The notes: a model not told the origin generated them from the letters alone. Counted from the stretch's first letter, positions 1 to 44,559 are shown. The stretch is 44,559 bases of DNA from Escherichia phage AAPEc6 (NC_047769.1), one strand, 5' to 3'. Translations and numbers: made by a program.

Positions 1-54
1 TCTGTTCGTTTCGTTCACTCCGCTTGCGCTACGTTCACTCGCTCACGTGTACCT

Positions 55-500
55 TAGGTTATTCCTTGATGGATGGCTTAGGTTAGCCTTAGTGGACTAC
101 CTTAGTTAAAGCCTTAGTGCTTCACTTAGTATCAGCTTAGTAGTGTACCTTAGTAAGTCTTAGTGTCTTCTCTTAGTGATTGCACATGCAAGCATGTGAG
201 ATGCCATTAGGTCGCGGTCGGTAGACCGCTAAAGAAGGGGAATAGTAATAAGATGCAGTAGGAGGAACACCAGAAACCTAGCCAACCTAGCCTATCCTAG
301 CTCTGTATCTATTGCTTTTCCTTAGTCTCACATGTTAGACAACCTATCTTATTCTTAGTGATGATAACTTAGTGTTGACAAGGTAATCTTAGTGTAATAC
401 TATGCATCACGTAGGCGGTGCTGAGGCACCTAGTAGCCAGCTAGTAAGGCATACGAAGAGACTAGCGCTTACATTGCTCTTTAACAATTTGCTTAGTGTA
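55..500 (+). repeat. Left-terminal array of short CTTAGT(G/A) repeats (about 14 copies), plus CGTTCACTC x2 at 12-40
   Basis: Repeated ccttagt/cttagtg motifs read directly in the first 500 bp; analogous short-repeat arrays flank T7-group genome ends. Confidence 0.6.
375..403 (+). promoter_or_regulatory. Candidate host sigma70 early promoter (TTGACA, 17-bp spacer, TACTAT)
   Basis: Perfect -35 hexamer with a 4/6 -10 hexamer at correct spacing, upstream of the first early ORFs. Confidence 0.3.
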
Positions 501-546
501 ACCTATGTATGCCGTGGTCAATTACTTATTGAATGAGGAATTAACT

Positions 547-726
547 ATGACATTAAACAACCGTGAACTGTCCGTTCTCTTCACTCTGTTGTGCTACATG
601 ATTCGTAACAACGAATTACTTACAGACGATGAGTTAGCCTTGTATCACCGCTTTCTTAACGAAGGTTGGATCGATACAGTTAATCAATACCGTAACATGA
701 TAGATGAGTTGAGGGAGGGTAAATAA
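547..726 (+). CDS. Hypothetical early protein (59 aa; ORF could start at 505)
   Basis: ORF track 505..726; internal ATG at 547 preceded by GAGGA at 535-539. Confidence 0.4.
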   Translation: MTLNNRELSVLFTLLCYMIRNNELLTDDELALYHRFLNEGWIDTVNQYRNMIDELREGK

Positions 727-950
727 TGTATCAACATGAGGTATTCTTTGAATCAGCTAGCGAAGCTATTCGCTTCCGTGATGATATGATGCAAGCTGGT
801 GTAGGCGTTGATGTGTATCACTATTTGATAGATTACGACACTGAATATCACCGAGTTACCTTAGTATCTGAGTATGACAACCAAGTCATTACTGAGTACC
901 TAGGCAGTGAAGATTACGATTACGATGAAGTAATCACGACAAATCTCTAA
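726..950 (+). CDS. Small acidic early protein (74 aa, D/E/Y-rich C-terminal half)
   Basis: ORF track; TAATG stop-start overlap with the upstream ORF suggests translational coupling. Confidence 0.45.
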   Translation: MYQHEVFFESASEAIRFRDDMMQAGVGVDVYHYLIDYDTEYHRVTLVSEYDNQVITEYLGSEDYDYDEVITTNL

Positions 951-958
951 ATTAACTG

Positions 959-987
959 TTGACAGCCACGGCATACAAGGTTACATT
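959..987 (+). promoter_or_regulatory. Candidate host sigma70 early promoter (TTGACA, 17-bp spacer, TACATT)
   Basis: Perfect -35 hexamer and plausible -10 hexamer in the early region. Confidence 0.3.
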
Positions 988-1079
988 AAGCATCAAGACG
1001 GCGACGTCTTTAAACATCCCGCTCTTTAACAATACGGTTTGTGTCTTGATAGGCTAACTAACTAACTAAGGTAATTATC

Positions 1080-1190
1080 ATGAAAGGTTTAATTTGTGTA
1101 GAACGTATGGTCAATGGTAAACTTGAAATATTACCACTGGAAAACCAATCTAGCTTCAAAGAGTGGTATGGCTGTTTCTCACTGATTTAA
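1080..1190 (+). CDS. Small ORF (36 aa)
   Basis: ATG at 1080 after the CTAACTAACTAA/AAGG element; below the ORF-track size cutoff. Confidence 0.25.
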   Translation: MKGLICVERMVNGKLEILPLENQSSFKEWYGCFSLI

Positions 1191-1340
1191 GGTAAAGGCT
1201 GGCACTAGTCAGCCTATCAAGGCGCAAACCAAGCTCTTTAACAATTTGGATAAAGCTTCTTAGTCTGGATAGGTTAAACCTAGGAGATTCTCTTGAGTCT
1301 CCTATAATGTAACCTAACTAACTAAATGAGGATTAATAAC

Positions 1341-1694
1341 ATGGCTATGTCTAATATGACTTACTCTCAGGTTTACAACACCGCTCATGCTGCATTAGTT
1401 GAACGCGTATGGGATGATGCCATTGATTGTATCGATAACGCACATGATGCAATCCATGAGGTGGCGGATAGTGCTGTACCAATCTATTATGCTGACATCT
1501 TCTCGGTGATGGCCAGTGAAGGAATCGACCACTTCTTCGAGGATTCTGGCTTAATGCCAGACACTAAGGATGTGACGGTCGTACTACAAGCCCGTATTTA
1601 TGAACAACTCACCATTGATTTATGGGAACGTGTTCAAGATATGATTGATGCGTACATCGATTCCGCTGAGGATTCAGAAGAAGAGGAAGAATAA
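1341..1694 (+). CDS. ocr: Ocr-like anti-restriction DNA mimic (T7 gp0.3 homolog)
   Basis: Translation MAMSNMTY...[19 protein letters not shown]...[12 protein letters not shown]...[15 protein letters not shown] with poly-Glu tail closely matches T7 Ocr as remembered; GAGGA 8 nt upstream of the ATG at 1341 (ORF track starts at 1326). Confidence 0.9.
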
Positions 1695-1696
1695 GG

Positions 1697-1810
1697 ATGG
1701 AAAAGCAATATAACTTTATCTTTTCAGACGGTGTAACCCTGAAGTGTTCCCTACGATTCGCACAAATTCGTGAGGAAGTACTAGGCACTACATACAAACT
1801 ATTTAGCTGA
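1697..1810 (+). CDS. Small ORF (37 aa) directly after ocr
   Basis: ATG at 1697 with an upstream purine-rich stretch; position analogous to the small genes after T7 0.3; weak. Confidence 0.2.
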   Translation: MEKQYNFIFSDGVTLKCSLRFAQIREEVLGTTYKLFS

Positions 1811-1825
1811 CACTATAAGAGAAGG
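1801..1825 (+). promoter_or_regulatory. Variant phage-type promoter (ATTTAGCTGACACTATAAGAGAAGG)
   Basis: Keeps the GACACTATA core but deviates around +1; possibly a weak or early-class promoter. Confidence 0.35.
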
Positions 1826-1886
1826 CTTAACAAGGCGTTGCTACGGTAGCGCCTGATTAAACTTTCACTTACTAGGAGTTAAGATT

Positions 1887-2114
1887 ATGGATTTAGATAG
1901 CATCATTATGGCGTTTGCTCTTATTGGCTTAAGCTGGTGCTCCTATCACCTTTACCGTGAGTTCTTATTTGATAAAGCTAAACGCAAACTAAGAAAGGAA
2001 GGCGGTAATTACCTTTGTGTAAGAGGTGGGCTTGTAGAATACATTGCACCTAACGGCACGGAATGCGCCATTAGCAAAGATGCATTTATAGAGACGTGGC
2101 ATTACATCAAGTAA
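1887..2114 (+). CDS. Small early membrane protein (75 aa, N-terminal hydrophobic helix)
   Basis: ORF track; AGGAG 8 nt upstream of the ATG. Confidence 0.45.
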   Translation: MDLDSIIMAFALIGLSWCSYHLYREFLFDKAKRKLRKEGGNYLCVRGGLVEYIAPNGTECAISKDAFIETWHYIK

Positions 2115-2147
2115 CTAGCCTATAGCCTGCCTGAGTGGGCTATGTGA

Positions 2148-2170
2148 TATTTACTTACACTATAAGGTGA
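2148..2170 (+). promoter_or_regulatory. Degenerate phage-type promoter (ATTTACTT-ACACTATAAGG)
   Basis: One-base deletion relative to the consensus; upstream of the 307-aa early gene. Confidence 0.25.
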
Positions 2171-2175
2171 TTAAT

Positions 2176-3099
2176 ATGACTGCTGAAAACATCATTCTGT
2201 CTGTTCGTGAAGCTGCAACCACTGAAATCAAGCAACACTTAGACAATATCGGCACTTCTTACATCAAAGTTGGCGCTTGTCTGAATGAATTACGCGGTGA
2301 TTTCGAAGGTCAAAAAGACTTTTTAGCTTATGTAGAATCAGAGTTCGGCATCAAGAAAGCACAATGCTACAAGCTGATGAGTGTAGCCCGTGTCTTTGAA
2401 GGAGATGAACGCTTTAAAGGTGTGGCTATGCGTGTAATGCTGGCGCTCGTTCCTTTCGCTGATGAGAATATAATCATGGAGAAGGCCGCAGAACTCGCCG
2501 CAGATGGCAAGCTGGACACTAATGCCGTAAATGCCCTGATTGATCCTAAGAAAGAGACAAAGGCCGAGACGGTACAATCTAAGGCTGAGGCGGTAAAACC
2601 GCAGGAGAATGCGACTGAGGCCGCAGAAACTATGCAAGGACATGCGACCTTTGAGGATTTCATCTTAGAGAAGGCGAAAGAGGAGTTACAAAGTGTGCCG
2701 CCAGTAAGTGAGTCGGGTAACGACGAATCCGCACCGTGGGAAGATGAAAGCAAGCCGGAAGCGCCTAAGGCCGCGCCACTGGATAACACGGCTAACACCG
2801 AGAATGCCGCTATTGCTGGTCTGCTGGCACAAATTAAAGCACTGACTGAGCAATTACAGGCAGCCAATGACCGCATCGCCTCCTTAAGTAGCGCACGCGA
2901 AAGCAAGAAAGCAGCCGCGCCTATGCTGCCGCAATTCAAATCTTCCTGCTTCTATGCTCGCTTAGGTTTAAGCGCTGAGGAGGCAACGAAGAAAACAGCA
3001 GTTAACAAGGCACGCCGCGAACTGGTTAAGCTGGGATACGGTGAAGGCCATGAGGCATGGCCCTTAATCTCTGAGGCAGTAGAAGAGTTGACTAAGTAA
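2176..3099 (+). CDS. Early protein of unknown function (307 aa; folded N-domain, acidic linker, C-terminal coiled coil)
   Basis: ORF track 2167..3099 (GTG); ATG at 2176 after AAGGTGA; sits where T7 has the 0.7 kinase but shows no kinase motifs. Confidence 0.6.
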   Translation: MTAENIILSVREAATTEIKQHLDNIGTSYIKVGACLNELRGDFEGQKDFLAYVESEFGIKKAQCYKLMSVARVFEGDERFKGVAMRVMLALVPFADENIIMEKAAELAADGKLDTNAVNALIDPKKETKAETVQSKAEAVKPQENATEAAETMQGHATFEDFILEKAKEELQSVPPVSESGNDESAPWEDESKPEAPKAAPLDNTANTENAAIAGLLAQIKALTEQLQAANDRIASLSSARESKKAAAPMLPQFKSSCFYARLGLSAEEATKKTAVNKARRELVKLGYGEGHEAWPLISEAVEELTK

Positions 3100-3162
3100 C
3101 CTTATCGGTGGCATCTTCTTAGGTGTCACCTATTAAGGTTTCTTTCACTAGGAGTAAACAAG

Positions 3163-5790
3163 ATGCAAGACCTACACGCTATTCAACTTCAACTTGAAGA
3201 AGAAATGTTTAACGGCGGTATCCGTCGCTTTGAAGCGGACCAACAACGCCAGATTGCATCCGGTAATGAATCAGACACGGCATGGAATCGCCGCTTATTG
3301 TCCGAGTTAATCGCGCCAATGGCTGAAGGTATTCAGGCATACAAGGAAGAGTATGAAGGTAAAAGAGGCCGTGCACCGCGTGCATTAGCTTTCATTAACT
3401 GCGTAGAAAACGAAGTGGCAGCATATATCACGATGAAAATCGTTATGGATATGCTGAACACGGATGTAACCTTGCAGGCTATAGCCATGAATGTAGCTGA
3501 CCGCATTGAGGACCAAGTACGTTTTAGCAAGCTGGAAGGTCACGCCGCCAAATACTTTGAAAAAGTTAAGAAGTCACTTAAGGCAAGTAAGACTAAATCA
3601 TATCGCCATGCGCACAATGTAGCGGTAGTGGCTGAAAAGTCTGTCGCTGACCGTGATGCGGACTTCTCCCGCTGGGAGGCATGGCCTAAAGATACCTTGT
3701 TGCAAATAGGCATGACCTTGCTAGAAATCTTGGAGAATAGCGTATTCTTCAACGGGCAACCTGTTTTCCTTCGTACCTTGCGCACTAACGGCGGCAAGCA
3801 TGGCGTTTACTACTTACAGACTAGCGAACACGTGGGTGAATGGATAACTGCATTTAAAGAGCACGTAGCTCAGCTGAGTCCAGCCTATGCACCTTGCGTT
3901 ATTCCTCCGCGTCCGTGGGTTTCTCCGTTTAATGGTGGCTTTCACACCGAGAAGGTGGCAAGTCGCATCCGTCTAGTAAAAGGTAACCGCGAGCACGTCC
4001 GCAAGCTGACTAAAAAGCAAATGCCAGCGGTTTATAAGGCTGTTAATGCATTGCAAGCCACTAAATGGCAGGTTAACAAGGAAGTGTTGCAGGTAGTAGA
4101 AGATGTTATTCGTCTAGACCTCGGTTATGGTGTACCTTCCTTTAAGCCGCTCATTGACCGCGAGAACAAACCAGCTAACCCTGTTCCTCTTGAGTTCCAA
4201 CACCTGCGAGGCCGTGAACTGAAAGAGATGCTTACGCCAGAACAGTGGCAAGCTTTTATAAACTGGAAAGGAGAATGTACCAAGCTGTATACCGCTGAAA
4301 CTAAGCGCGGAAGCAAGTCGGCGGCAACCGTTCGCATGGTTGGACAGGCCCGTAAATACAGCCAGTTTGACGCAATTTATTTTGTGTATGCACTGGACAG
4401 CCGCAGCCGTGTATACGCGCAATCTAGCACGCTCTCGCCGCAATCAAATGACTTAGGCAAGGCATTGCTCCGTTTTACCGAAGGGCAGCGTCTTGATAGC
4501 GCTGAGGCGCTTAAGTGGTTTTTGGTGAACGGGGCGAATAACTGGGGTTGGGATAAGAAAACTTTTGACGTGCGCACCGCTAACGTGCTGGACGGCGAGT
4601 TTCAAGACATGTGCCGCGACATTGCAGCCGACCCGCTGACCTTCACTCAATGGGTAAATGCCGACTCCCCTTACGGCTTCCTTGCATGGTGCTTTGAATA
4701 TGCGCGTTATCTTGATGCACTGGATGAAGGCACGCAAGACCAATTCATGACGCACCTCCCAGTCCATCAAGATGGTAGTTGTTCTGGTATACAGCACTAC
4801 AGTGCTATGCTACGCGATGCAGTAGGTGCGAAAGCAGTAAACCTTAAGCCCTCTGACTCTCCTCAAGATATTTATGGTGCCGTTGCGCAGGTAGTAATTC
4901 AGAAGAATTATGCATACATGAATGCAGAGGCTGCGGAAACCTTCACTTCTGGCAGCGTGACTTTAACAGGTGCGGAACTGCGTAGTATGGCTAGTGCGTG
5001 GGATATGATAGGAATCACTCGCGGCCTAACCAAAAAGCCCGTAATGACACTACCTTATGGCAGCACACGTCTAACCTGCCGTGAGTCAGTGATTGATTAT
5101 ATCGTTGATTTAGAAGAAAAAGAGGCCCAACGGGCTATTGCGGAAGGGCGTACCGCCAATCCTGTACACCCTTTTGATAATGACCGTAAAGACAGCCTTA
5201 CACCTAGCGCAGCTTATAACTATATGACAGCTTTAATCTGGCCTTCTATTTCGGAAGTGGTTAAAGCTCCTATAGTGGCAATGAAAATGATTCGTCAGCT
5301 TGCCCGTTTCGCAGCTAAAAGGAATGAAGGCCTAGAGTATACCCTGCCTACTGGCTTCATCTTGCAACAAAAGATTATGGCTACTGATATGCTCCGCGTA
5401 TCTACTTGCTTGATGGGAGAAATCAAGATGAGTCTACAGATTGAAACAGACGTAGTGGATGAAACGGCAATGATGGGCGCTGCTGCTCCTAACTTTGTGC
5501 ATGGTCATGATGCCAGCCACCTTATCTTAACAGTCTGCGACCTTGTTGATAAAGGGATTACATCTATCGCAGTTATTCATGACTCTTTTGGCACTCATGC
5601 AGGCCGTACAGCCGACCTTCGTGATAGCTTAAGGGCAGAAATGGTGAAGATGTATCAAGGCCGTAATGCGCTGCAAAGCCTGCTAGATGAGCACGAAGAA
5701 CGCTGGTTAGTTGATACCGGAATACAAGTACCAGAGCAAGGGGAGTTTGACCTTAACGAAATCTTAGTTTCAGACTATTGCTTCGCATAA
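3163..5790 (+). CDS. Single-subunit DNA-directed RNA polymerase (T7 gene 1 family)
   Basis: 875 aa; motifs [29 protein letters not shown] and C-terminal ...DYCFA match T7/SP6-type RNAPs; AGGAG RBS. Confidence 0.97.
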
Positions 5791-5863
5791 TATTAATAGG
5801 CCATTCCTTCGGGAGTGGCCTTTCTTTTACCTACTACCTGTAACATTTCATTAACATAAAAGT

Positions 5864-5879
5864 GTCTCACATGTGAGAC
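5864..5879 (+). repeat. 16-bp perfect palindrome GTCTCACATGTGAGAC (copy 1), just upstream of a promoter
   Basis: Read directly; identical to the copies at 6045, 8256 and 30670. Confidence 0.9.
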
Positions 5880-5881
5880 TT

Positions 5882-5903
5882 ATTTACCGGACACTATAGG
5901 ATA
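5882..5903 (+). promoter_or_regulatory. Phage RNAP promoter (ATTTACCGGACACTATAGGATA)
   Basis: Matches the window consensus ATTTACTGGACACTATAGAAG at most positions. Confidence 0.6.
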
Positions 5904-34996: not shown

Positions 34997-35191
34997 ATGA
35001 TTAACTCCGAACTGGTAGATAGTGGTGTGAAGCTTGCGCCACCTGCACTCGTATCAGGTGGGTACTTCCTCGGTATCAGTTGGGATAATTGGGTGTTAAT
35101 AGCAACATTCATTTATACCGTGTTGCAAATTGGGGACTGGTTTTATAATAAGTTCAAGATTTGGAGGGAGAAGCGTGAGCGTACACAATAA
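34997..35191 (+). CDS. Class II holin (T7 gp17.5-like)
   Basis: ISWDNWVLIATFIYTVLQIG resembles T7 holin LSLNEWFYVAAIAYTVVQIG; AAGGAGG RBS. Confidence 0.75.
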   Translation: MINSELVDSGVKLAPPALVSGGYFLGISWDNWVLIATFIYTVLQIGDWFYNKFKIWREKRERTQ

Positions 35192-35474
35192 ACATGCAGC
35201 TACAGAGGACGAGGTTGGCATTCTGCATGGTGCTATTACCAAAATCTTCAATAAGAAAGCACAGGCAATACTGGACACTATAGAAGAAGACCCTGATGCA
35301 GCATTACATTTAGTGTCTGGTAAGGATATTGGTGCGATGTGTAAGTGGGTTCTTGATAACGGCATTACCGCCACACCTGCTGCACAGCAGGAAGAGTCCA
35401 AGTTATCTAAGCGCCTCAAGGCTATCCGAGAGGCATCCAGTGGTAAAATAATTCAATTTACAAAAGAGGAGTAA
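35175..35474 (+). CDS. Candidate terminase small subunit (GTG start)
   Basis: No in-frame ATG near the 5' end; GTG at 35175 after GGAGGGAG; position between holin and large terminase. Confidence 0.45.
   Translation: MSVHNKHAATEDEVGILHGAITKIFNKKAQAILDTIEEDPDAALHLVSGKDIGAMCKWVLDNGITATPAAQQEESKLSKRLKAIREASSGKIIQFTKEE
35268..35288 (+). promoter_or_regulatory. Promoter-like sequence (ATACTGGACACTATAGAAGAA) inside the small-terminase ORF
   Basis: Core matches the consensus; the upstream ATTT is degenerate. Confidence 0.4.
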
Positions 35475-35475
35475 T

Positions 35476-35919
35476 ATGCATAGATGGTGTGAATCTCAAG
35501 GTTATACCATCTTACCTTCTGGTGTCATCCTTTCAAAGGGTGGCACCCCTCTCAAGCCTTTCAAGGTGGGTAGGGGTTATTTAGCAGTTAAAATTAAAAA
35601 TAAAGAAGGTAAATGGCGTAATGTCTATGTTCATCACTTAGTGGCTTATAAGTATTTACCTAAAACCGATAATGAAGTAAACCACAAAGACGGCAATAAG
35701 CACAACAATGATGTTAGCAACTTGGAGTGGGTGACAAGAAGCGAGAATAACTACTTAAAATGCAATGGAAATGATAGGAGTGCCTTAAATAATTACTTAG
35801 CAAGATTAAAAGATTGCTTCTTGCAGGGTAAGGGTGTAGCAGAAACCGCTAGGCTTACTGGTAAAAGTGAACCAAGGGTTTCTTCTCTCTTTAAGGAGTG
35901 GCGAAATGGCAAAGGCTAG
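35476..35919 (+). CDS. HNH homing endonuclease
   Basis: Motif VNHKDGNKHNNDVSNLEWVTRSENN; A-rich codon usage; GAGGAG RBS. Confidence 0.85.
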   Translation: MHRWCESQGYTILPSGVILSKGGTPLKPFKVGRGYLAVKIKNKEGKWRNVYVHHLVAYKYLPKTDNEVNHKDGNKHNNDVSNLEWVTRSENNYLKCNGNDRSALNNYLARLKDCFLQGKGVAETARLTGKSEPRVSSLFKEWRNGKG

Positions 35920-37804
35920 AGAATCACAGGCAGAGGCATTAAAGCGGTGGGAAAACCTTAAAGAACTACAAGACACTTTTAAGTATACAGCGGAAGGTTT
36001 GCTTCTCTTTGCAGATACAGTTATTCATAACTTAATTGCAGGCAACCCTCATCTGATTCGTATGCAGGCGGATATCTTGAAGTTCCTATTTTACGGACAC
36101 AAGTACCGCCTCATCGAAGCGCCTCGTGGTATCGCTAAGACAACACTATCAGCAATCTATACGGTATTCCGTATTATTCATGAACCGCATAAGCGTATCA
36201 TGGTTGTGTCCCAAAACGCCAAGCGAGCAGAGGAAATCGCAGGTTGGGTAGTTAAAATCTTCCGTGGCTTAGACTTTCTTGAGTTTATGCTGCCGGATAT
36301 CTACGCTGGGGACCGTGCATCCGTTAAGGCGTTTGAGATTCATTACACCCTACGTGGTAGTGATAAGTCTCCTTCTGTATCCTGTTACTCAATCGAAGCA
36401 GGTATGCAGGGCGCTCGTGCTGATATTATTCTAGCGGATGACGTAGAGTCGATGCAGAATGCTCGTACGGCAGCGGGCCGTGCCTTGCTTGAGGAGCTGA
36501 CTAAGGAGTTTGAATCTATCAACCAGTTTGGGGATATCATTTACCTTGGTACACCTCAGAACGTAAACTCTATCTACAACAACCTACCTGCTCGTGGTTA
36601 CTCTGTTCGTATCTGGACTGCGCGTTACCCTTCAGTAGAGCAAGAGCAATGTTATGGCGACTTCCTTGCACCTATGATTGTTCAAGATATGAAGGACAAC
36701 CCAGCACTTCGCTCAGGGTACGGGTTGGATGGTAATAGTGGTGCACCTTGTGCCCCTGAAATGTATGATGATGAAGTCCTGATTGAGAAGGAAATCTCTC
36801 AGGGTGCTGCTAAGTTCCAGCTTCAGTTCATGCTTAACACTCGCATGATGGATGCTGACAGATACCCATTACGCCTGAACAATCTAATCTTCACCTCGTT
36901 TGGTACAGAGGAAGTCCCTGTGATGCCTACGTGGAGTAATGATTCCATAAACATCATTGGTGATGCACCTAAGTATGGTAACAAGCCTACGGATTTCATG
37001 TACAGACCTGTAGCTCGCCCATATGAATGGGGTGCTGTCTCCCGCAAGATTATGTATATTGACCCTGCGGGTGGTGGTAAGAATGGAGATGAGACGGGTG
37101 TAGCCATCGTATTCCTGCACGGCACATTCATTTATGTGTATCAGTGCTTTGGTGTACCTGGCGGATACCGAGAGTCGTCCCTGAATCGCATTGTGCAGGC
37201 CGCAAAGCAGGCGGGTGTTAAAGAGGTATTCATTGAGAAGAACTTTGGTCATGGCGCGTTTGAGGCGGTAATTAAGCCGTACTTTGAACGAGAGTGGCCT
37301 GTAACTCTGGAAGAGGATTACGCCACCGGACAGAAAGAGTTGCGTATCATTGAGACGCTGGAGCCGCTCATGGCAGCCCATAGGCTTATCTTCAATGCAG
37401 AGATGGTGAAGTCAGACTTTGAGTCGGTACAGCACTATCCGCTTGAACTACGCATGTCCTACAGTCTTTTCAATCAAATGTCGAACATAACGATTGAGAA
37501 GAACAGCCTCCGGCATGATGACCGCCTAGACGCCCTGTATGGCGCTATACGGCAATTAACTTCTCAGATAGACTATGACGAGGTTACACGGATTAATCGC
37601 CTCAGAGCGCAGGAGATGCGCGATTACATCCATGCTATGAACACACCTCATCTACGCAGGGCAATGCTATATGGAGATTACGGTACTGAGCGAAGAGTGA
37701 CCAACACTTCCGTAGCGATGCAGCAGCGAGTTTACGGGCAGAACTACCGAAATAAATCGGCAAGCAGAAATACACTTTCTGCAAGGATTTCAAGGACTTA
37801 TTAA
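35906..37804 (+). CDS. Terminase large subunit (gp19-like)
   Basis: ATPase and nuclease segments (APRGIAKTT, ADIILADDVE, IYLGTPQN); ATG at 35906 after AAGGAG (ORF track 35867). Confidence 0.93.
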   Translation: MAKARESQAEALKRWENLKELQDTFKYTAEGLLLFADTVIHNLIAGNPHLIRMQADILKFLFYGHKYRLIEAPRGIAKTTLSAIYTVFRIIHEPHKRIMVVSQNAKRAEEIAGWVVKIFRGLDFLEFMLPDIYAGDRASVKAFEIHYTLRGSDKSPSVSCYSIEAGMQGARADIILADDVESMQNARTAAGRALLEELTKEFESINQFGDIIYLGTPQNVNSIYNNLPARGYSVRIWTARYPSVEQEQCYGDFLAPMIVQDMKDNPALRSGYGLDGNSGAPCAPEMYDDEVLIEKEISQGAAKFQLQFMLNTRMMDADRYPLRLNNLIFTSFGTEEVPVMPTWSNDSINIIGDAPKYGNKPTDFMYRPVARPYEWGAVSRKIMYIDPAGGGKNGDETGVAIVFLHGTFIYVYQCFGVPGGYRESSLNRIVQAAKQAGVKEVFIEKNFGHGAFEAVIKPYFEREWPVTLEEDYATGQKELRIIETLEPLMAAHRLIFNAEMVKSDFESVQHYPLELRMSYSLFNQMSNITIEKNSLRHDDRLDALYGAIRQLTSQIDYDEVTRINRLRAQEMRDYIHAMNTPHLRRAMLYGDYGTERRVTNTSVAMQQRVYGQNYRNKSASRNTLSARISRTY

Positions 37805-38894: not shown

Positions 38895-39002
38895 GATGTG
38901 TTGAATGGTGTGAGCGTATGGTTGCCCAAGCTGCCGAGGATGGCAACTATGATGACTGGAAGAACTACTCTGACTTGTTAGCTCAATGGAAAGGGAGATG
39001 CA

Positions 39003-39152
39003 ATGAAAAAGCTGTTTAAGTCTAAGAAGGTTGTAGGTGCACTGGTTGCACTTGTTATTGCTCTTGTTTCTGTAGGTCTTGGTGTAGACCTTGGCTCTGG
39101 CACGGAATCCTCTGTGACAGATGTGGTCTGCCAAGTGATTACCTGTGAATAA
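39003..39152 (+). CDS. Small membrane protein (49 aa, basic N-terminus plus TM segment)
   Basis: GGGAGA RBS; MKKLFKSKKVVGALVALVIALVSVGLG. Confidence 0.4.
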   Translation: MKKLFKSKKVVGALVALVIALVSVGLGVDLGSGTESSVTDVVCQVITCE

Positions 39153-39366
39153 GTTTCTAGAAGTGCTGGCAGGTCTTATTGGCCTGCTTGTCTCTGCTAA
39201 GAAGAAACAAGAAGAGAAGGAGGCACAAAGTGAAGCGAATCATGTTAGTGACAATCCTGCTGATTGGTTCGCTGACCACTTCCGGGTGTCAGCAGGCGTT
39301 ACCAGAGAAAGCAATGGTGAAACCTCTGAGGCCGACGCTGACGGAAGTTTACGAGGTAGACGATAA
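39145..39366 (+). CDS. Candidate i-spanin (N-terminal TM then charged periplasmic domain); GTG start
   Basis: ORF track; TM segment FLEVLAGLIGLLVSA; overlaps the o-spanin candidate in another frame. Confidence 0.4.
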   Translation: MNKFLEVLAGLIGLLVSAKKKQEEKEAQSEANHVSDNPADWFADHFRVSAGVTRESNGETSEADADGSLRGRR

Positions 39367-39439
39367 GGTCTGCTTTAGTAAGCCTGACGCTACAAAATTA
39401 GGTTTGTATATTCTTTCGCTAGAACGCGGATATAATTAA
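39242..39439 (+). CDS. Candidate o-spanin lipoprotein (Rz1-like)
   Basis: MLVTILLIGSLTTSGC: signal peptide with lipobox-like TSGC; overlapping architecture. Confidence 0.45.
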   Translation: MLVTILLIGSLTTSGCQQALPEKAMVKPLRPTLTEVYEVDDKVCFSKPDATKLGLYILSLERGYN

Positions 39440-39468
39440 TACATAGCTTTATGTATCAGTGTCTTACG

Positions 39469-39492
39469 ATTTACTGGACACTATAGAAGAGG
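39469..39492 (+). promoter_or_regulatory. Phage promoter (ATTTACTGGACACTATAGAAGAGG) driving the tailspike genes
   Basis: Exact consensus; preceded by GTCTTACGAT half-site relic. Confidence 0.85.
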
Positions 39493-39570
39493 TAAGATAG
39501 CGCCGTTCTTTTGAGCGGCCTATTACTAGCCAATCTTCATAGGGAGGGTTGGAAAGTAATAGGAGATAGC

Positions 39571-41469
39571 ATGGCTAAATTAACCAAACCTAATACTGAA
39601 GGAATCTTGCATAAAGGACAATCTTTGTATGAGTACCTTGATGAGAGAGTTTTAACATCAAAGCCGTTTGGTGCTGCAGGTGACGCCACTACTGATGATA
39701 CGGAGGTTATAGCTGCTTCATTAAACTCTCAGAAAGCTGTCACAGTCTCAGATGGTGTATTCTCTAGCTCTGGTATTAATAGTAATTACTGTAACTTAGA
39801 CGGTAGGGGTAGTGGCGTGCTAAGTCACCGTTCCAGTACAGGTAACTACTTAGTATTTAACAATCTACGTGCAGGTCGTTTAAGTAATATTACGGTAGAA
39901 AGTAATAAGGCGACTGATACAACTCAGGGACAGCAGGTGTCTCTTGCTGGTGGAAGTGATGTTACTGTAAGTGACGTTAACTTCTCAAACGTTAAAGGTA
40001 CTGGTTTCAGTTTAATCGCATACCCTAATGATGCGCCACCTGATGGACTTATGATTAAAGGCATTCGAGGTAGCTATTCAGGCTATGCTACTAATAAGGC
40101 AGCAGGATGCGTACTTGCTGACTCCTCAGTTAACTCCCTCATAGATAACGTCATTGCTAAGAACTACCCTCAGTTCGGAGCAGTAGAGTTGAAAGGTACA
40201 GCCAGTTACAACATAGTCAGTAATGTTATAGGGGCAGATTGCCAGCATGTAACTTACAACGGCACTGAAGGGCCAATAGCTCCTTCTAATAACCTTATCA
40301 AGGGGATGATGGCTAATAACCCTAAGTATGCAGCGGTTGTTGCAGGCAAAGGAAGTACGAACTTAATCTCAGACGTGCTCGTAGATTACTCAACTTCTGA
40401 TGCTAGGCAGGCTCATGGTGTTACAGTAGAGGGTTCTGATAACGTCATAAATAATGTACTTATGTCAGGATGTGATGGTACTAACTCTTTAGGGCAAGGG
40501 CAGACTGCTACAATTGCACGCTTTATAGGTACAGCTAATAACAACTATGCGTCTGTATTTCCTAGCTACAGTGCTACAGGTGTTATTACTTTCGAATCCG
40601 GCTCTACCCGTAACTTCGTAGAGGTAAAGCACCCTGGCAGGAGAAACGACCTTCTCAGTTCTGCTAGTACTATTGACGGTGCAGCTACTATTGACGGCAC
40701 TAGTAATAGTAACGTAGTGCACGCACCTGCCTTAGGGCAGTACATAGGTAGTATGTCAGGTAGGTTCGAATGGCGGATTAAGTCCATGTCACTCCCTTCA
40801 GGCGTTCTTACTTCTGCTGATAAGTACAGAATGCTTGGAGATGGTGCTGTGTCATTAGCTGTAGGTGGGGGCACTTCTTCTCAAGTTCGCCTATTTACTT
40901 CTGATGGTACTTCTCGGGCAGTGTCCCTCACCAACGGTAACGTGCGTCTTTCTACCAGTAGCACAGGCTTTTTGCAGTTAGGTGCTGATGCAATGACCCC
41001 AGACAGTACTGGTACATACGCATTAGGTTCCGCCAGCCGAGCATGGTCTGGCGGTTTTACTCAAGCAGCATTCACTGTTACCTCAGATGCTCGGTGTAAA
41101 ACAGAACCTCTTACTATCTCAGATGCCTTACTGGATGCTTGGTCTGAAGTTGACTTTGTGCAGTTTCAGTATTTGGATCGTGTTGAGGAGAAGGGTGCAG
41201 ACTCAGCTAGATGGCACTTCGGTATCATCGCTCAGCGAGCTAAGGAGGCTTTCGAACGTCACGGTATAGATGCACATCGCTATGGCTTCTTGTGCTTCGA
41301 CAGTTGGGATGATGTATACGAGGAAGATGCCAATGGCTCTCGTAAACTGATTACACCAGCAGGTTCCCGCTACGGTATTCGTTACGAGGAAGTACTGATA
41401 TTAGAGGCTGCGTTGATGCGGCGGACTATTAAGCGTATGCAGGAAGCACTAGCTTCCCTGCCTAAGTAA
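39571..41469 (+). CDS. Tailspike capsule depolymerase, beta-helix lyase-like, with C-terminal intramolecular chaperone domain
   Basis: 632 aa from the ATG at 39571 (AGGAGA RBS); repetitive N/V/G/S beta-helix-like coils; C-terminal TSDARCK...HFGIIAQ shared with the next tailspike. Confidence 0.8.
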   Translation: MAKLTKPNTEGILHKGQSLYEYLDERVLTSKPFGAAGDATTDDTEVIAASLNSQKAVTVSDGVFSSSGINSNYCNLDGRGSGVLSHRSSTGNYLVFNNLRAGRLSNITVESNKATDTTQGQQVSLAGGSDVTVSDVNFSNVKGTGFSLIAYPNDAPPDGLMIKGIRGSYSGYATNKAAGCVLADSSVNSLIDNVIAKNYPQFGAVELKGTASYNIVSNVIGADCQHVTYNGTEGPIAPSNNLIKGMMANNPKYAAVVAGKGSTNLISDVLVDYSTSDARQAHGVTVEGSDNVINNVLMSGCDGTNSLGQGQTATIARFIGTANNNYASVFPSYSATGVITFESGSTRNFVEVKHPGRRNDLLSSASTIDGAATIDGTSNSNVVHAPALGQYIGSMSGRFEWRIKSMSLPSGVLTSADKYRMLGDGAVSLAVGGGTSSQVRLFTSDGTSRAVSLTNGNVRLSTSSTGFLQLGADAMTPDSTGTYALGSASRAWSGGFTQAAFTVTSDARCKTEPLTISDALLDAWSEVDFVQFQYLDRVEEKGADSARWHFGIIAQRAKEAFERHGIDAHRYGFLCFDSWDDVYEEDANGSRKLITPAGSRYGIRYEEVLILEAALMRRTIKRMQEALASLPK

Positions 41470-41554
41470 GCAACAGGCAGTGCGTAAGCACTGCTTTTAG
41501 CGCAACTTTTCTTAAAGGTTATCATGATGGTAGCCTTTCAGAAAAGGAGGTTAC

Positions 41555-43990
41555 ATGATTCAAAGACTAGGTTCTTCATTAGTTAAATTCAAGAGTAAAA
41601 TAGCAGGTGCAATCTGGCGTAACTTGGATGACAAGCTCACCGAGGTTGTATCGCTTAAAGATTTTGGAGCCAAAGGTGATGGTAAGACAAACGACCAAGA
41701 TGCAGTAAATGCAGCGATGGCTTCAGGTAAGAGAATTGACGGTGCTGGTGCTACTTACAAAGTATCATCTTTACCTGACATGGAGCGATTCTATAACACC
41801 CGCTTCGTATGGGAACGTTTAGCAGGTCAACCTCTTTACTATGTGAGTAAAGGTTTTATCAATGGTGAACTATATAAAATCACGGATAACCCTTATTACA
41901 ATGCTTGGCCTCAAGACAAAGCGTTTGTATATGAGAACGTGATATATGCACCTTACATGGGTAGTGACCGTCATGGTGTTAGTCGTCTGCATGTATCATG
42001 GGTTAAGTCTGGTGACGATGGTCAAACATGGTCTACTCCAGAGTGGTTAACTGATCTGCATCCAGATTACCCTACAGTGAACTATCATTGTATGAGTATG
42101 GGTGTATGTCGCAACCGCCTGTTTGCCATGATTGAAACACGTACTTTAGCCAAGAACGCACTAACCAATTGTGCATTGTGGGATCGCCCTATGTCTCGTA
42201 GTCTGCATCTTACTGGTGGTATCACTAAGGCTGCAAATCAGAGATATGCAACAATCCATGTACCTGATCACGGACTCTTCGTGGGCGATTTTGTTAACTT
42301 CTCTAATTCTGCGGTAACAGGTGTATCAGGTGATATGACTGTTGCAACGGTAATAGATAAGGACAACTTCACGGTTCTTACACCTAACCAGCAGACTTCA
42401 GATTTGAATAACGATGGAAAGAGTTGGCACATGGGTACTTCTTTCCATAAGTCTCCATGGCGTAAGACAGATCTTGGTCTAATCCCTCGTGTCACAGAGG
42501 TGCATAGCTTTGCTACTATTGATAACAATGGCTTTGTTATGGGCTATCATCAAGGTGATGTAGCTCCACGAGAAGTTGGTCTTTTCTACTTCCCTGATGC
42601 TTTCAATAGCCCATCTAATTATGTTCGTCGTCAGATACCATCTGAGTATGAACCAGATGCGGCAGAGCCATGCATCAAGTACTATGACGGTGTATTATAC
42701 CTTATCACTCGTGGCACTCGTGGTGACAGACTTGGAAGCTCTTTGCATCGTAGCAGAGATATAGGTCAGACTTGGGAGTCACTGAGATTTCCACATAATG
42801 TTCATCATACTACCTTACCTTTTGCTAAAGTAGGAGATGACCTTATTATGTTTGGTTCAGAACGTGCAGAAAATGAATGGGAAGCAGGTGCACCAGATGA
42901 TCGTTACAAGGCATCTTATCCTCGTACCTTCTATGCACGATTGAATGTAAACAATTGGAATGCAGATGATATTGAATGGGTTAACATCACAGACCAAATC
43001 TATCAAGGTGACATTGTGAACTCTAGTGTAGGTGTAGGTTCTGTTGTAGTTAAAGACAGCTACATTTACTATATCTTTGGTGGAGAAAACCATTTCAACC
43101 CAATGACTTATGGTGACAACAAAGATAGAGACCCATTTAAAGGTCATGGACACCCTACTGATATATACTGCTATAAGATGCAGATTGCAAATGACAATCG
43201 TGTATCTCGTAAGTTTACATATGGTGCAACTCCGGGTCAAGCTATACCTACTTTCATGGGTACTGATGGAATACGAAATATCCCTGCACCTTTGTATTTC
43301 TCAGATAACATTGTTACAGAGGATACTAAAGTTGGACACTTAACACTTAAAGCAAGCACAAGTTCCAATATACGATCTGAAGTGCAGATGGAAGGTGAAT
43401 ATGGCTTTATTGGCAAGTCTGTTCCAAAGGACAACCCAACTGGTCAACGTTTGATTATTTGTGGTGGAGAAGAGACTTCGTCCTCTTCAGGTGCACAGAT
43501 AACTTTGCACGGCTCTAATTCAAGTAATGCTAAGCGTATCACTTATAACGGAAATGAGCACCTATTCCAAGGTGCACCAATCATGCCTGCTGTAGATAAC
43601 CAGTTTGCTGCTGGTGGACCCAGTAACCGATTCACGACCATCTACCTAGGTAGTGACCCTGTTACAACTTCAGATGCTGACCACAAGTACGGTATCTCTA
43701 GTATTAATACCAAGGTGTTAAAGGCTTGGAGCAGGGTTGGTTTTAAACAGTATGGTTTGAATAGTGAAGCAGAGAGGAACCTTGATAGCATACACTTCGG
43801 TGTCTTGGCTCAGGATATTGTAGCTGCTTTTGAAGCTGAAGGGTTAGATGCCATTAAGTATGGAATTGTGTCCTTCGAAGAAGGTAGGTACGGTGTGAGG
43901 TATAGTGAAGTTCTAACCCTAGAGGCTGCTTATACTCGTTATCGTTTAGACAAGTTAGAGGAGATGTATGCCACTAATAGAATCAGTTAA
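41555..43990 (+). CDS. Tailspike endosialidase (endo-N-acetylneuraminidase) with C-terminal intramolecular chaperone domain
   Basis: 811 aa; two Asp-box motifs (SGDDGQTW, SRDIGQTW); C-terminal TSDADHK...HFGVLAQ; AAGGAGG RBS. Confidence 0.88.
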   Translation: MIQRLGSSLVKFKSKIAGAIWRNLDDKLTEVVSLKDFGAKGDGKTNDQDAVNAAMASGKRIDGAGATYKVSSLPDMERFYNTRFVWERLAGQPLYYVSKGFINGELYKITDNPYYNAWPQDKAFVYENVIYAPYMGSDRHGVSRLHVSWVKSGDDGQTWSTPEWLTDLHPDYPTVNYHCMSMGVCRNRLFAMIETRTLAKNALTNCALWDRPMSRSLHLTGGITKAANQRYATIHVPDHGLFVGDFVNFSNSAVTGVSGDMTVATVIDKDNFTVLTPNQQTSDLNNDGKSWHMGTSFHKSPWRKTDLGLIPRVTEVHSFATIDNNGFVMGYHQGDVAPREVGLFYFPDAFNSPSNYVRRQIPSEYEPDAAEPCIKYYDGVLYLITRGTRGDRLGSSLHRSRDIGQTWESLRFPHNVHHTTLPFAKVGDDLIMFGSERAENEWEAGAPDDRYKASYPRTFYARLNVNNWNADDIEWVNITDQIYQGDIVNSSVGVGSVVVKDSYIYYIFGGENHFNPMTYGDNKDRDPFKGHGHPTDIYCYKMQIANDNRVSRKFTYGATPGQAIPTFMGTDGIRNIPAPLYFSDNIVTEDTKVGHLTLKASTSSNIRSEVQMEGEYGFIGKSVPKDNPTGQRLIICGGEETSSSSGAQITLHGSNSSNAKRITYNGNEHLFQGAPIMPAVDNQFAAGGPSNRFTTIYLGSDPVTTSDADHKYGISSINTKVLKAWSRVGFKQYGLNSEAERNLDSIHFGVLAQDIVAAFEAEGLDAIKYGIVSFEEGRYGVRYSEVLTLEAAYTRYRLDKLEEMYATNRIS

Positions 43991-44117
43991 GCAATCTGCT
44001 GTACGCCAGAACACAGAAGAACTCATTCAATCAGGACGTGACCATAAGCAGGCATATGCCATTGCAAAGGATGTACAACGTCGTACCATGAAGAAACCTT
44101 CTGCATCTTCTGCGTAA
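43968..44117 (+). CDS. Small basic ORF (49 aa) overlapping the endosialidase 3' end
   Basis: GAGGAG 4 nt upstream of the ATG; below the ORF-track cutoff. Confidence 0.3.
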   Translation: MPLIESVKQSAVRQNTEELIQSGRDHKQAYAIAKDVQRRTMKKPSASSA

Positions 44118-44119
44118 GC

Positions 44120-44559
44120 AGGTTAATATCTTAGTGTACACAAGGGCAGACCTAGGTTTGCTCTTAGTGTATTTACAATGGAGGTCTTATGTATATACCT
44201 ATGGAAGCAATAGTAGGTGGCCTATGCTTGTTGATAGGTTTCGTTATAGGCTTAATAGCAAATCCTTAGTCCTGTACAAGGATTAACCAAAGTCAAAATT
44301 TTGATATAGGCGTGTGTCAGCTCTCTCGCCCTCGCCCTCGCCGGGTTGTCCCCATAGGGTGGCCTGAGGGAATCCGTCTTCGACGGGCAGGGCTGAGGTA
44401 CTCATTGGCTAGTACAAGGGAGGCGGAGGGAACGCCTAGGGAGGCCTAGGAATGGCTTAGTGGTGGACAAGGTGATTACCTTAGTGAAGCCTCTTAGTGC
44501 ATTCCTGAGGCCATTCAGGGCGTTTATGAGGGATTGACAGGGTGGGCGTGGGTGGGCTA
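44120..44559 (+). repeat. Right-terminal region: CTTAGTG repeats (about 6 copies) flanking a GC-rich block (44310-44450)
   Basis: Same heptamer family as at the left end; local GC-rich stretch with CCCTCG repeats is atypical for this genome. Confidence 0.55.
44189..44269 (+). CDS. Hydrophobic miniprotein (26 aa, single predicted TM)
   Basis: GGAGG 4 nt upstream of the ATG; MYIPMEAIVGGLCLLIGFVIGLIANP. Confidence 0.25.
   Translation: MYIPMEAIVGGLCLLIGFVIGLIANP

What the first reader, a model, noticed from the sequence alone, without database searches (positions are those of the whole stretch)
1..44559. Terminal architecture: CTTAGTG repeat arrays at both ends, GC-rich block at right end, no direct terminal repeat in the window
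Both ends carry arrays of the heptamer CTTAGT(G/A) (about 14 copies at left, about 6 at right), and the right end has a distinctive GC-rich segment (44310-44450) with CCCTCG repeats. The first and last 150 bp are not identical, so either the direct terminal repeat expected for T7-like genomes was collapsed in assembly or the window is offset. The repeats are candidates for concatemer processing or packaging signals.
Basis: partly seen in the sequence, partly recalled or inferred. Interest (0 to 1): 0.5.

Follow-up and report, generated by a model that had tools for sequence, protein, structure and literature searches.

The report
K1-5-like phage genome-end junction
The window is one unit-length genome of a K1-5/SP6-like E. 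coli phage with only one copy of its terminal repeat kept (at the right end), so its two "ends" are the two halves of the well-known T7-type concatemer junction, which is ordinary, although what reads the conserved CTTAGTG words there is still unknown.

Summary
CTTAGT occurs 19 times in the 980 bp around the end-to-start join, always on the + strand (0.34 expected). The GC-rich block is the highest-GC stretch of the genome. The two ends share no repeat.

The window is a Vectrevirus (K1-5-like; SP6 group). Its last 234 bp match the exact 234-bp direct terminal repeat (DTR) of K1-5 at 227/234, without gaps and ending at the same base. Base 1 is the first base after the left DTR. So one DTR copy was dropped, and the GC-rich block is the left half of the DTR.

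Joined end to start, the window gives a T7-type concatemer junction:
- flanking words;
- a conserved cut-site region;
- a G-rich DTR;
- TATCTGTT, the T7 RNA polymerase class II pause signal, across the join;
- a 10-word array with a 12-bp period.

The words are under selection: 0 of 60 core columns vary against 27 of 75 spacer columns in 8 relatives. The word differs by lineage: CTTAGTG, CATAGTG, CATGATG, and CCTAAAG in T7/T3. A copy also abuts the first early promoter.

The architecture is already known. A packaging role for the words is plausible but unproven, and their binder is unidentified.

The parts
44129..44171 (+). Right-flank pair of identical words TCTTAGTGTA (44129-44138, 44162-44171) bracketing a hairpin (44142-44165)
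   Evidence: The same arrangement, with a changed stem, occurs in SP6 and PM93.
44265..44271 (+). Third right-flank word CTTAGTC
44293..44304 (.). AT-rich palindrome TCAAAATTTTGA, about 18 bp before the left DTR border
   Evidence: Conserved in K1-5, SP6, PM93 and phD2B, imperfect in Kp7.
44305..44325 (+). Conserved approach to the left cut site, TATAGGCGTGTGTCAGC followed by TCTC. The physical left terminus lies between 44322 and 44326.
   Evidence: This stretch plus the first ~45 bp of the DTR is the only part of the junction that BLAST still finds in Proteus, Klebsiella and Lelliottia phages.
44326..44559 (+). The single retained copy of the direct terminal repeat (234 bp by K1-5 homology; 238 bp if it starts at TCTCTCG as in SP6). 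It is G-rich on the + strand (G 37.6%, C 21.8%).
44350..44359 (.). CCCCATAGGG near-palindrome about 25-29 nt inside the DTR. T7 has CCCCCATAGGGGG at 26-38.
44456..44499 (+). Three CTTAGTG words inside the DTR (44456, 44480, 44493)
   Evidence: They sit at the same offsets (-105, -81, -68) in most Vectrevirus relatives.
44534..44556 (+). TTGACA followed by GGGTGGGCGTGGGTGGG, the G-run block that closes the DTR
44558..44559 (+). First two bases (TA) of TATCTGTT, the class II pause/termination signal that spans the DTR right border
   Evidence: literature
1..6 (+). Last six bases (TCTGTT) of TATCTGTT, the first bases of the unique region
7..50 (+). Pyrimidine-rich leader with two CGTTCACTC copies. 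GC skew flips from +0.40 (44451-44559) to -0.26 (1-50).
   Evidence: Its length varies in relatives.
53..178 (+). Left array of ten CTTAG(T/G) words, all on the + strand, spaced 24, 11, 13, 12, 12, 11, 13, 10 and 13 bp
   Evidence: In 8 relatives 0 of 60 core columns vary against 27 of 75 spacer columns, p = 1.8e-8.
183..228 (.). Two hairpins (183-199 and 211-228) whose stems change but stay complementary across genera
321..403 (+). Four more words (321, 354, 368, 388) embedded in and around the first early sigma-70-type promoter (TTGACA 375-380, 17-nt spacer, TACTAT 398-403)
492..498 (+). Isolated word CTTAGTG just after the RNase III-like GCTCTTTAACAA (476-487)
35175..35471 (+). Terminase small subunit (T7 gp18 family, PF11123)
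35867..37804 (+). Terminase large subunit
3163..5787 (+). Single-subunit phage RNA polymerase (85% identical to SP6 RNAP)
39469..39489 (+). Last phage-type promoter (ATTTACTGGACACTATAGAAG) before the right end. It is the source of rightward transcription into the junction in concatemers.

Best explanation
The window is one unit-length genome of a K1-5-like phage (Vectrevirus, SP6 group of the T7 supergroup). It is written from the first base after the left direct terminal repeat (DTR) to the last base of the right DTR. The DTR is therefore present once, at 44326-44559 (possibly starting at 44322), and the GC-rich block is its left half.

Joined end to start, the sequence reconstitutes the concatemer junction that exists in replicating DNA, in this order:
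1. Three flanking CTTAGTG words.
2. An AT palindrome and a strongly conserved cut-site region.
3. A G-rich DTR holding three more words.
4. TATCTGTT exactly across the DTR right border.
5. A pyrimidine-rich leader.
6. Ten words at a 12-bp period.
7. Two hairpins.
8. The first early host-type promoter with four more words.

Shown here: the homology, the borders, the selection on the words and their lineage specificity.

Inferred from T7:
- Phage RNA polymerase reading rightward (nearest promoter at 39469) pauses at TATCTGTT.
- Prohead-terminase (TerS 35175-35471, TerL 35867-37804) engages there and cuts at the two DTR borders.
- The DTR is duplicated by repair synthesis, so that each virion DNA carries it at both ends.

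The heptamer words are most likely arrayed binding sites for a phage-specified, sequence-specific DNA-binding factor that organises this junction and also touches the first early promoter. The factor is not identified.
For: Identity of the phage. 95-98% nucleotide identity to Vectrevirus records over both ends.

The DTR.
- The K1-5 record carries an exact 234-bp repeat at both ends.
- The window's last 234 bp align to it gap-free at 227/234 and end on the same base. The window starts with TCTGTT, the bases that follow the left DTR in K1-5.
- Circular assemblies run straight from window 44559 to window 1.

Conserved borders. SP6 (174 bp), K1-5 (234), Kp7 (238) and phD2B (262) all start (TCT)CTCGSCCTCGSCC...CCCCATAGG and end ...GGG(C/G)(G)TA followed by TCTGT. 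T7 and T3 end ...CCCT followed by ATCTGTT and carry CCCCCATAGGGGG at 26-38.

The pause signal.
- The polymerase-lysozyme complex paused there is reported to interact with gp18/gp19 to start packaging (PMC3276506).
- PacB/PacC and the roles of gp18/gp19 are described in PMC9860248.
- ATCTGTT occurs once on the + strand of the circularised window, at the join.

The words.
- 19 on the + strand and 0 on the - strand in 980 bp, against 0.34 expected.
- 12-bp modal spacing.
- 0/60 variable core columns against 27/75 spacer columns.
- In each of four genomes the genome's own word is concentrated at the junction on the + strand, while counts in the genome body equal Markov expectation.
- T7 and T3 have the same layout with CCTAAAG.

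Trans-acting parts. TerS matches PF11123. RNAP and terminase homologues are present.
Against: - The duplication of the DTR cannot be seen in the window itself. It rests on homology.
- I found no accessible evidence that SP6/K1-5-type RNA polymerase pauses at ATCTGTT. VSW-3 RNAP, another autographivirus enzyme, ignores it.
- + strand depletion of ATCTGT is seen in the window (2 observed, 7.3 expected) but not in SP6 or Kp7.
- Unlike T7, no phage promoter lies near the junction. The nearest upstream one is 5.1 kb away and a terminator-like hairpin (44142-44165) lies in between.
- Nothing links the words to terminase. TerS and TerL identities do not follow the word type.
- The packaging elements named in the T7/T3 literature I could read (PacB, PacC, the pause site) are not the heptamer arrays.
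- Copies at the early promoter suggest a role outside packaging.
Confidence: 0.8

Rival explanations
1. The words have little to do with packaging. They are operators for a factor that controls the first early promoter, or handling of the leading genome end on entry, and their presence around the DTR is secondary.
For: The lineage's own word abuts or overlaps the -35 of the first early sigma-70 promoter in the window, K1-5, SP6, PM93, phD2B and T7 A1 (TTGACTTAAAG), and in Kp7 by eye (ATAGTGCTTGACA). Most copies lie on the left, which is the end injected first in T7-type phages (established knowledge).
Against: Words also lie to the left of and inside the DTR, at the far right of the genome, in every lineage examined. 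The ten-word array is 200 bp upstream of the promoter. No candidate regulator was found.
Confidence: 0.25
2. The words are recognition sites of the small terminase subunit. Its ring would wrap the junction DNA, as small terminases of pac phages do with repeated boxes.
For: - Same-strand arrays at a regular 12-bp period on both sides of the cut sites.
- TerS of the T7 gp18 family is present.
- gp18 is said to recognise PacB in the concatemer (PMC9860248).
Against: SP6 TerS is 78% identical to the window's TerS (same word) and 75% identical to phD2B's (different word). TerL is closer between SP6 and phD2B (94%) than between SP6 and the window (79%). So nothing tracks the word. This does not explain the promoter-proximal copies.
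Confidence: 0.3
3. The words are partial or decoy promoters that hold the phage RNA polymerase near the junction.
For: - The Kp7 word CATAGTG shares ATAGTG with the upstream part of its own promoter TAATAGTGGCGAGTATAG.
- The T3 promoter core CACTAAAGG contains the T7/T3 word CTAAAG.
Against: The window and SP6 share the word but differ in the promoter specificity region (TACTGGACAC against TTAGGTGACAC). The phD2B word CATGATG has no counterpart in its promoter TTAGGGGCTACTATAG.
Confidence: 0.05
4. The repeats are neutral products of replication slippage, and the window ends are arbitrary cuts of a circularly permuted genome.
For: Short tandem-like repeats can arise by slippage. Many database records of relatives are written with arbitrary start points.
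Against: - Cores are invariant while the spacers between them vary (0/60 against 27/75). Slippage would copy the spacers too.
- Strict single-strand orientation.
- Exact DTRs of fixed sequence in K1-5, SP6 and Kp7, and annotated terminal repeats in phD2B.
- The window ends fall exactly on the K1-5 DTR border.
Confidence: 0.03

Closest known systems
Genome ends of phage K1-5 (AY370674; Vectrevirus)
   Same: - DTR sequence 227/234 identical and ending at the same base.
- The same word positions after the DTR (53 to 492) and inside it (-105, -81, -68).
- The same early promoter.
- The same K1 endosialidase as the last large gene.
   Different: - The window keeps only the right DTR copy.
- Seven substitutions in the DTR, four of them in the closing G-run block, give the window a (G3N1-3)4 motif that K1-5 has only in a looser form.
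- The right-flank words sit at different offsets because the small-ORF region differs.
Genome ends of Salmonella phage SP6 (Zindervirus)
   Same: - The same word CTTAGTG.
- The same DTR borders (TCTCTCGG... and ...GTGGGCTA followed by TCTGTTCG).
- The same palindrome TCAAAATTTTGA and the same TTGACA 18 nt before TATCTG.
   Different: - The DTR is 174 bp with one internal word, and its centre is unrelated (142 matches over 241 aligned columns).
- No G4-type motif.
- A different promoter specificity region.
Concatemer junction of T7 and T3 (Studiervirinae): 160- or 231-bp DTR, heptamer arrays beside it (named SRL and SRR, from memory of Dunn and Studier 1983), and the CJ class II pause site
   Same: - The same order of elements: flanking words, TCTC terminus, CCCCATAGGG-type palindrome about 26 nt in, a G/T-rich DTR with internal words, ATCTGTT at the right border, then an array at a 12-13 bp period on the same strand, then early promoters with a word at the first -35.
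- The same terminase family.
   Different: - The word is CCTAAAG.
- The DTR border lies two bases earlier relative to ATCTGTT.
- T7 has phage promoters next to the junction (phiOR 708 bp before the right end, phiOL 245 bp after the DTR). The window has none within 5.1 kb upstream or 1.8 kb downstream.
- No detectable nucleotide homology beyond these short motifs.
pac region of Bacillus phage SPP1, where repeated boxes on both sides of the cut are bound by the small terminase (from memory, not tested)
   Same: Short repeated boxes flanking a terminase cut site. This suggests a wrapped nucleoprotein complex.
   Different: SPP1 packages by the headful mechanism with permuted ends. No sequence or protein homology was tested here. 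This is a works-like analogy only.

Membership tests
T7-supergroup (Autographiviridae) genome with a short exact direct terminal repeat | Identical repeat of roughly 150-300 bp at both physical ends of virion DNA | not testable with these tools
   The window holds one copy only. By homology, its last 234 bp correspond to the K1-5 DTR, which is exact at both ends of that record. Physical duplication needs reads or virion DNA.
T7-supergroup (Autographiviridae) genome with a short exact direct terminal repeat | Class II pause signal (C/T)ATCTGT(T/A) at the right border of the repeat, in the direction of transcription | tested here: met
   CTA|TCTGTT is formed by joining 44559 to 1. It is the only + strand ATCTGTT. 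The same holds in K1-5, SP6, PM93, phD2B, T7 and T3; Kp7 has TATCTGTC.
T7-supergroup (Autographiviridae) genome with a short exact direct terminal repeat | Same-strand arrays of a short repeated word beside and inside the repeat | tested here: met
T7-supergroup (Autographiviridae) genome with a short exact direct terminal repeat | Single-subunit RNA polymerase with its own promoters, all genes on one strand, and gp18/gp19-type terminase | tested here: met
   - RNAP at 3163-5787 is 85% identical to SP6 RNAP. TerS and TerL are present.
- TerS matches PF11123.
- Eleven exact + strand copies of the promoter core GACACTATAG.
Genus Vectrevirus (K1-5/K1E-like) | High nucleotide identity and collinearity with K1-5/K1E-type genomes | tested here: met
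   Only the ends were compared. Positions 1-1400 are 93-98% identical to more than 30 Vectrevirus records. Positions 44000-44559 are up to 95.7% identical. The last gene is a K1 endosialidase, as in K1-5.
Class II (sequence-specific) terminator/pause site of T7 RNAP | Invariant ATCTGTT preceded by A, C or T, acting in the non-template strand | tested here: met
   T-ATCTGTT on the + strand.
Class II (sequence-specific) terminator/pause site of T7 RNAP | Recognition by the cognate polymerase (pause or termination 6-9 nt downstream). A downstream U-run is needed for release. | not testable with these tools
   The sequence downstream is CGTTTCGTT, only partly U-rich, so a pause is more likely than release. 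The response of K1-5/SP6-type RNAP was not found in accessible papers. VSW-3 RNAP is insensitive.
Headful (pac) packaging with circular permutation | No fixed termini; terminal redundancy of variable sequence | tested here: not met
   Relatives carry exact repeats with conserved borders. Bal31 digestion is described as the method for testing for a DTR in UAB_Phi78, which is reported with a 179-bp DTR.

The most novel reading that the evidence does not exclude
The heptamer words are operators of one still unidentified, phage-encoded, sequence-specific DNA-binding protein. Its specificity would have switched several times: CTTAGTG in Vectre-, Zinder- and Acadevirus; CATAGTG in Kp7-like phages; CATGATG in Tuodvirus; CCTAAAG in T7/T3. 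In every lineage it would mark three places at once: the right flank of the DTR, the array after the DTR, and the -35 of the first early promoter. That would couple shut-off or timing of early host-polymerase transcription to recognition of the concatemer junction. It would give a function to the T7 heptamer arrays, whose function, to my knowledge, is still unassigned.
Probability: 0.3. Interest if true: 0.55.

Novelty: already known. Interest (0 to 1): 0.27.

Why it matters
For annotation: the record should be read as unique region plus one DTR. The true virion DNA is about 234-238 bp longer, and by convention it starts at about 44322-44326.

For biology: the junction layout itself is textbook T7-group biology. 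Three comparative results are not obvious and make the old question of what the heptamer arrays do experimentally tractable:
- the cores are invariant while the spacers vary;
- the word has been replaced wholesale in sister genera while its positions stayed;
- a copy of the lineage's own word always sits at the first early promoter.

Possible experiments are word swaps between K1-5-like and phD2B-like phages, and pull-downs with multi-word probes. The result is useful for engineering SP6/K1-5-type phages and transducing particles, where the minimal packaging signal must be known.

Tried and rejected
1. Word as a piece of the phage promoter. I derived promoter cores for four genomes. There is no general match. 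The window and SP6 share the word but not the promoter specificity region, and the phD2B word has no match.

2. Word type tracking terminase. TerS and TerL identities do not follow the word.

3. The small basic protein gp48 (43968-44117) as the binder.
- It has no Pfam hit and belongs to a PHROG of unknown function.
- Its homologues travel with tailspike genes into unrelated phages, including the 72-kb St11Ph5 and Vibrio and Pseudomonas phages.
- No such ORF lies at the right end of PM93, which has the word.

4. Selection against ATCTGT on the transcribed strand as proof that the polymerase reads the signal. The window shows 2 observed against 7.3 expected, but SP6 (6 against 9.2) and Kp7 (10 against 9.4) do not. 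Many hexamers are more asymmetric because of codon usage. Inconclusive.

5. Rfam scan of the whole window: no family at gathering score.

6. Scan of the viral contig collection with the 15-mer GTGGGCTATCTGTTC. Most of the 120 stretches were chance hits, and 13 true relatives were kept.

7. Literature.
- The SP6 genome paper (Dobbins 2004) is not held.
- Full-text searches for the words returned only primer lists.
- Searches for the T7 array names gave nothing.
- So statements about Dunn and Studier 1983, Chung and Hinkle 1990, Scholl et al. 2004 and Zhang and Studier 2004 are from memory, except where a held paper repeats them.

8. A sigma-70 promoter formed by TTGACA (44534), an 18-nt spacer and TATCTG. 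The -10 is poor (3/6, no final T). It was not pursued.

Full report
**What is in the sequence**

Both ends were read directly.
- The pattern CTTAGTR occurs 37 times against 15.3 +/- 4.1 in shuffles.
- The excess is wholly local. In the 980 bp made of 44100-44559 plus 1-520, CTTAGT occurs 19 times on the + strand and never on the - strand. The rate in the rest of the genome predicts 0.34.
- The GC-rich block is real. The 141-bp window starting at 44309 has 65% GC, the maximum of the genome (mean 45%, sd 4.8), and it contains (TCGCCC)3.
- The two ends share no repeat. The longest common word is 11 nt.

**What the window is**

Both ends are 93-98% identical to many Vectrevirus records (K1-5, K1E, EEc4, EC120 and others), members of the SP6 group of Autographiviridae.
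- The K1-5 record carries an exact 234-bp repeat at its two ends, TCGCCCTCGCCC...GGGCGTGGGCTA. At the left end this is followed by TCTGTTCC.
- The window begins TCTGTTCG and ends ...GTGGGTGGGCTA. Its last 234 bp align to the K1-5 repeat without a gap, at 227/234, and end on the same base.
- In records assembled as circles, the window's last base is directly followed by its first base (OZ035788 8314|8315, OL362272 8306|8307). A query spanning the join matches those records as a single piece.
- EEc4 is written the other way round, with the repeat at the left only.

So the window is the unique region plus one DTR copy. The DTR is 44326-44559, or starts at 44322 if the terminus is TCTCTCG as deposited for SP6. 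The 'GC-rich block' is the left half of that repeat.

**Anatomy of the junction**

Joining end to start gives the elements below (coordinates):

| Element | Coordinates |
|---|---|
| Words TCTTAGTGTA | 44129-44138 and 44162-44171, bracketing a hairpin; third word at 44265 |
| Palindrome TCAAAATTTTGA | 44293-44304 |
| Conserved TATAGGCGTGTGTCAGC, then TCTC | 44305-44325 |
| DTR (G 37.6%, C 21.8% on the + strand), containing the next four elements | 44326-44559 |
| CCCCATAGGG (in DTR) | 44350-44359 |
| Small hairpin CCGTCTTCGACGG (in DTR) | 44374-44386 |
| Three words (in DTR) | 44456, 44480, 44493 |
| TTGACA plus GGGTGGGCGTGGGTGGG (closes the DTR) | 44534-44556 |
| TATCTGTT | 44558-44559 joined to 1-6 |
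| Pyrimidine-rich leader (GC skew flips from +0.40 to -0.26) | 7-50 |
| Ten words, all on the + strand | 53-178 |
| Two hairpins | 183-228 |
| Four more words, in and around a sigma-70-type promoter | 321-394 |

The spacing of the ten words is 24, 11, 13, 12, 12, 11, 13, 10 and 13 bp. The mode is 12 bp over all relatives. The promoter is TTGACA 375-380, a 17-nt spacer, and TACTAT 398-403.

**Comparison with relatives**

I took junctions from K1-5, EEc4, SP6, Raoultella phage P3a, Proteus phage PM93, Lelliottia phage phD2B, Klebsiella phage Kp7 and 13 IMG/VR contigs, together with T7 and T3.

The DTR length varies: 174 bp in SP6, 234 in K1-5, 238 in Kp7, 262 in phD2B and an annotated 283 in P3a. 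The two borders are conserved.
- Left border: ...GTGTCAG(C/G)TCTCTCGSCCTCGSCC...TGTCCCCATAGG.
- Right border...GGG(C/G)(G)TA followed by TCTGT(T/C).
- In distant genera BLAST finds only the 60-76 nt around the left border.
- T7 and T3 have the same plan: TCTC terminus, CCCCCATAGGGGG at 26-38, and ...CCCT followed by ATCTGTT.

[quoted passage not shown] The polymerase-lysozyme complex paused there is reported to interact with gp18 and gp19 to start maturation and packaging (PMC3276506). PacB and PacC, with the roles of gp18 and gp19, are described in PMC9860248. The window encodes the matching proteins: an RNAP 85% identical to SP6 RNAP, a TerS of family PF11123, and TerL.

**Are the words functional?**

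The evidence says yes.
- In a gapless alignment of the ten-word array from eight Vectrevirus genomes, none of the 60 core columns varies, while 27 of the 75 spacer columns do (Fisher p = 1.8e-8).
- CTTAGT is the most frequent hexamer of the junction in every K1-5/SP6-type relative, down to 55% overall junction identity.
- The word is lineage specific. It is CTTAGTG in Vectre-, Zinder- and Acadevirus. Kp7 has CATAGTG(CA) in the flanks plus CTGTGGATAA inside the DTR. phD2B has CATGATG, and T7 and T3 have CCTAAAG.
- In four complete genomes the genome's own word is concentrated at the junction on the + strand only. Foreign words are nearly absent there (0-2 copies). Counts in the genome body equal Markov expectation.
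- Invariant cores with free spacers, a single orientation and wholesale replacement of the word across genera argue for recognition by a trans-acting factor that co-evolves with the word. They argue against slippage debris.

**A further regularity**

The lineage's own word abuts or overlaps the -35 of the first early host-type promoter in the window, K1-5, SP6, PM93, phD2B and T7 A1 (TTGACTTAAAG). Kp7 shows the same by eye (ATAGTGCTTGACA). A role confined to packaging therefore does not cover all copies.

**Who reads the words?**

This was not resolved.
- The words are not pieces of the phage promoters in any general way.
- Terminase identities do not follow the word.
- The small basic protein gp48, next to the right-flank words, travels with tailspike genes into unrelated phages, and no such ORF lies at the right end of PM93.

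**Mechanism proposed, and its status**

*Shown:*
- the single DTR copy and its borders;
- the TATCTGTT at the border;
- the conservation of the cut-site region;
- the selection on the words and their lineage specificity.

*Inferred from T7:*
- rightward transcription from the nearest phage promoter at 39469-39489 pauses at TATCTGTT;
- prohead-terminase engages and cuts at the DTR borders, and the DTR is duplicated by synthesis;
- the words assemble a nucleoprotein complex around the junction.

*Weak points:*
- Unlike T7, which has phiOR and phiOL, the window has no phage promoter close to the junction.
- A terminator-like hairpin lies at 44142-44165.
- I found no evidence in what I could read that SP6-type polymerase responds to ATCTGTT, and VSW-3 polymerase does not.
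- Depletion of ATCTGT on the transcribed strand is seen here but not in SP6 or Kp7.

**Novelty and verdict**

The DTR of K1-5 and SP6 and the T7-type junction are established. From memory, the sources are Scholl et al. 2004, Dobbins et al. 2004, Dunn and Studier 1983, Chung and Hinkle 1990, and Zhang and Studier 2004. The first four of these could not be read here. The Zhang and Studier model is repeated in PMC3276506.

The finding is therefore a correct observation of a known architecture, plus a correct guess that one DTR copy is missing. The comparative results on the words are modest additions that make an old open point testable.

Interest is 0.27. Confidence is about 0.95 for the identification of the DTR and junction, about 0.8 for the explanation as a whole, and about 0.5 that the words act in concatemer processing or packaging rather than only elsewhere.

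Noticed in passing
window 183-199 and 211-228 (followed by conserved TAAGATGCAGTAGGAGGAACACC at 246-268): Two hairpins lie between the word array and the first early promoter. Their stems differ completely between genera but stay complementary. The second hairpin reads GCGGTC/GACCGC in the window and SP6, GCTTGCT/AGCAAGC in PM93, GCTCAC/GTGAGC in phD2B and TCTCACC/GGTGAGA in Kp7. The first hairpin behaves likewise. This is strong covariation for a structured element of unknown function.
   Followed up: partly
window 44540-44556: GGGTGGGCGTGGGTGGG is the only (G3N1-7)4 quadruplex-type motif in the whole window on either strand. It lies 3 nt before the DTR right border and pause signal. It is present in about half of the Vectrevirus relatives and absent from SP6-type junctions.
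   Followed up: partly
window 44534-44539: TTGACA lies 18 nt upstream of TATCTG and is conserved in the window, K1-5, SP6, PM93 and several contigs. It looks like a -35 box, but the matching -10 is poor. A 2026 preprint reports that the T7 junction acts as an E. coli promoter in some contexts.
   Followed up: no
window 35476-35919: A 147-aa HNH homing-endonuclease-like ORF is inserted between the small and large terminase genes, which are adjacent in SP6. The window's TerL is less similar to SP6 TerL (79%) than the TerL of phD2B (94%) or Kp7 (87%), which suggests module exchange.
   Followed up: no
window 476-487, 1021-1032, 1233-1244: Three copies of GCTCTTTAACAA lie in the early region. From memory, this word sits in the T7 R0.3 RNase III site, so these are probably RNase III processing sites. 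Two of the three are followed by a CTTAGT word.
   Followed up: no
window 44142-44165: A hairpin lies between two identical TCTTAGTGTA words and was flagged as terminator-like. The same arrangement, with a changed stem, occurs in SP6 and PM93. Its loop carries a word-like CCTAGG or CTTAGG.
   Followed up: partly
window 43968-44117: A 49-aa basic ORF (K1-5 gp48 / SP6 gp51; PHROG 2423, function unknown) overlaps the end of the tailspike gene. Homologues follow tail-fibre or tailspike genes in unrelated phages (72-kb St11Ph5, and Vibrio and Pseudomonas phages), so it appears to move with the tailspike module.
   Followed up: partly
L137 (T3) about 366-388, compared with the T3/T7 junction words: The T3 promoter core CACTAAAGG contains the T7/T3 junction word CTAAAG. 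The T7 promoter (CACTATAGG) differs from the word by one base. No such relation holds in the SP6 group, so this may be coincidence.
   Followed up: partly
window 41555-43990: The last large gene is an 811-aa K1 endosialidase tailspike with a C-terminal chaperone-like region, as in K1-5 gp47. This implies a K1-capsule host.
   Followed up: no
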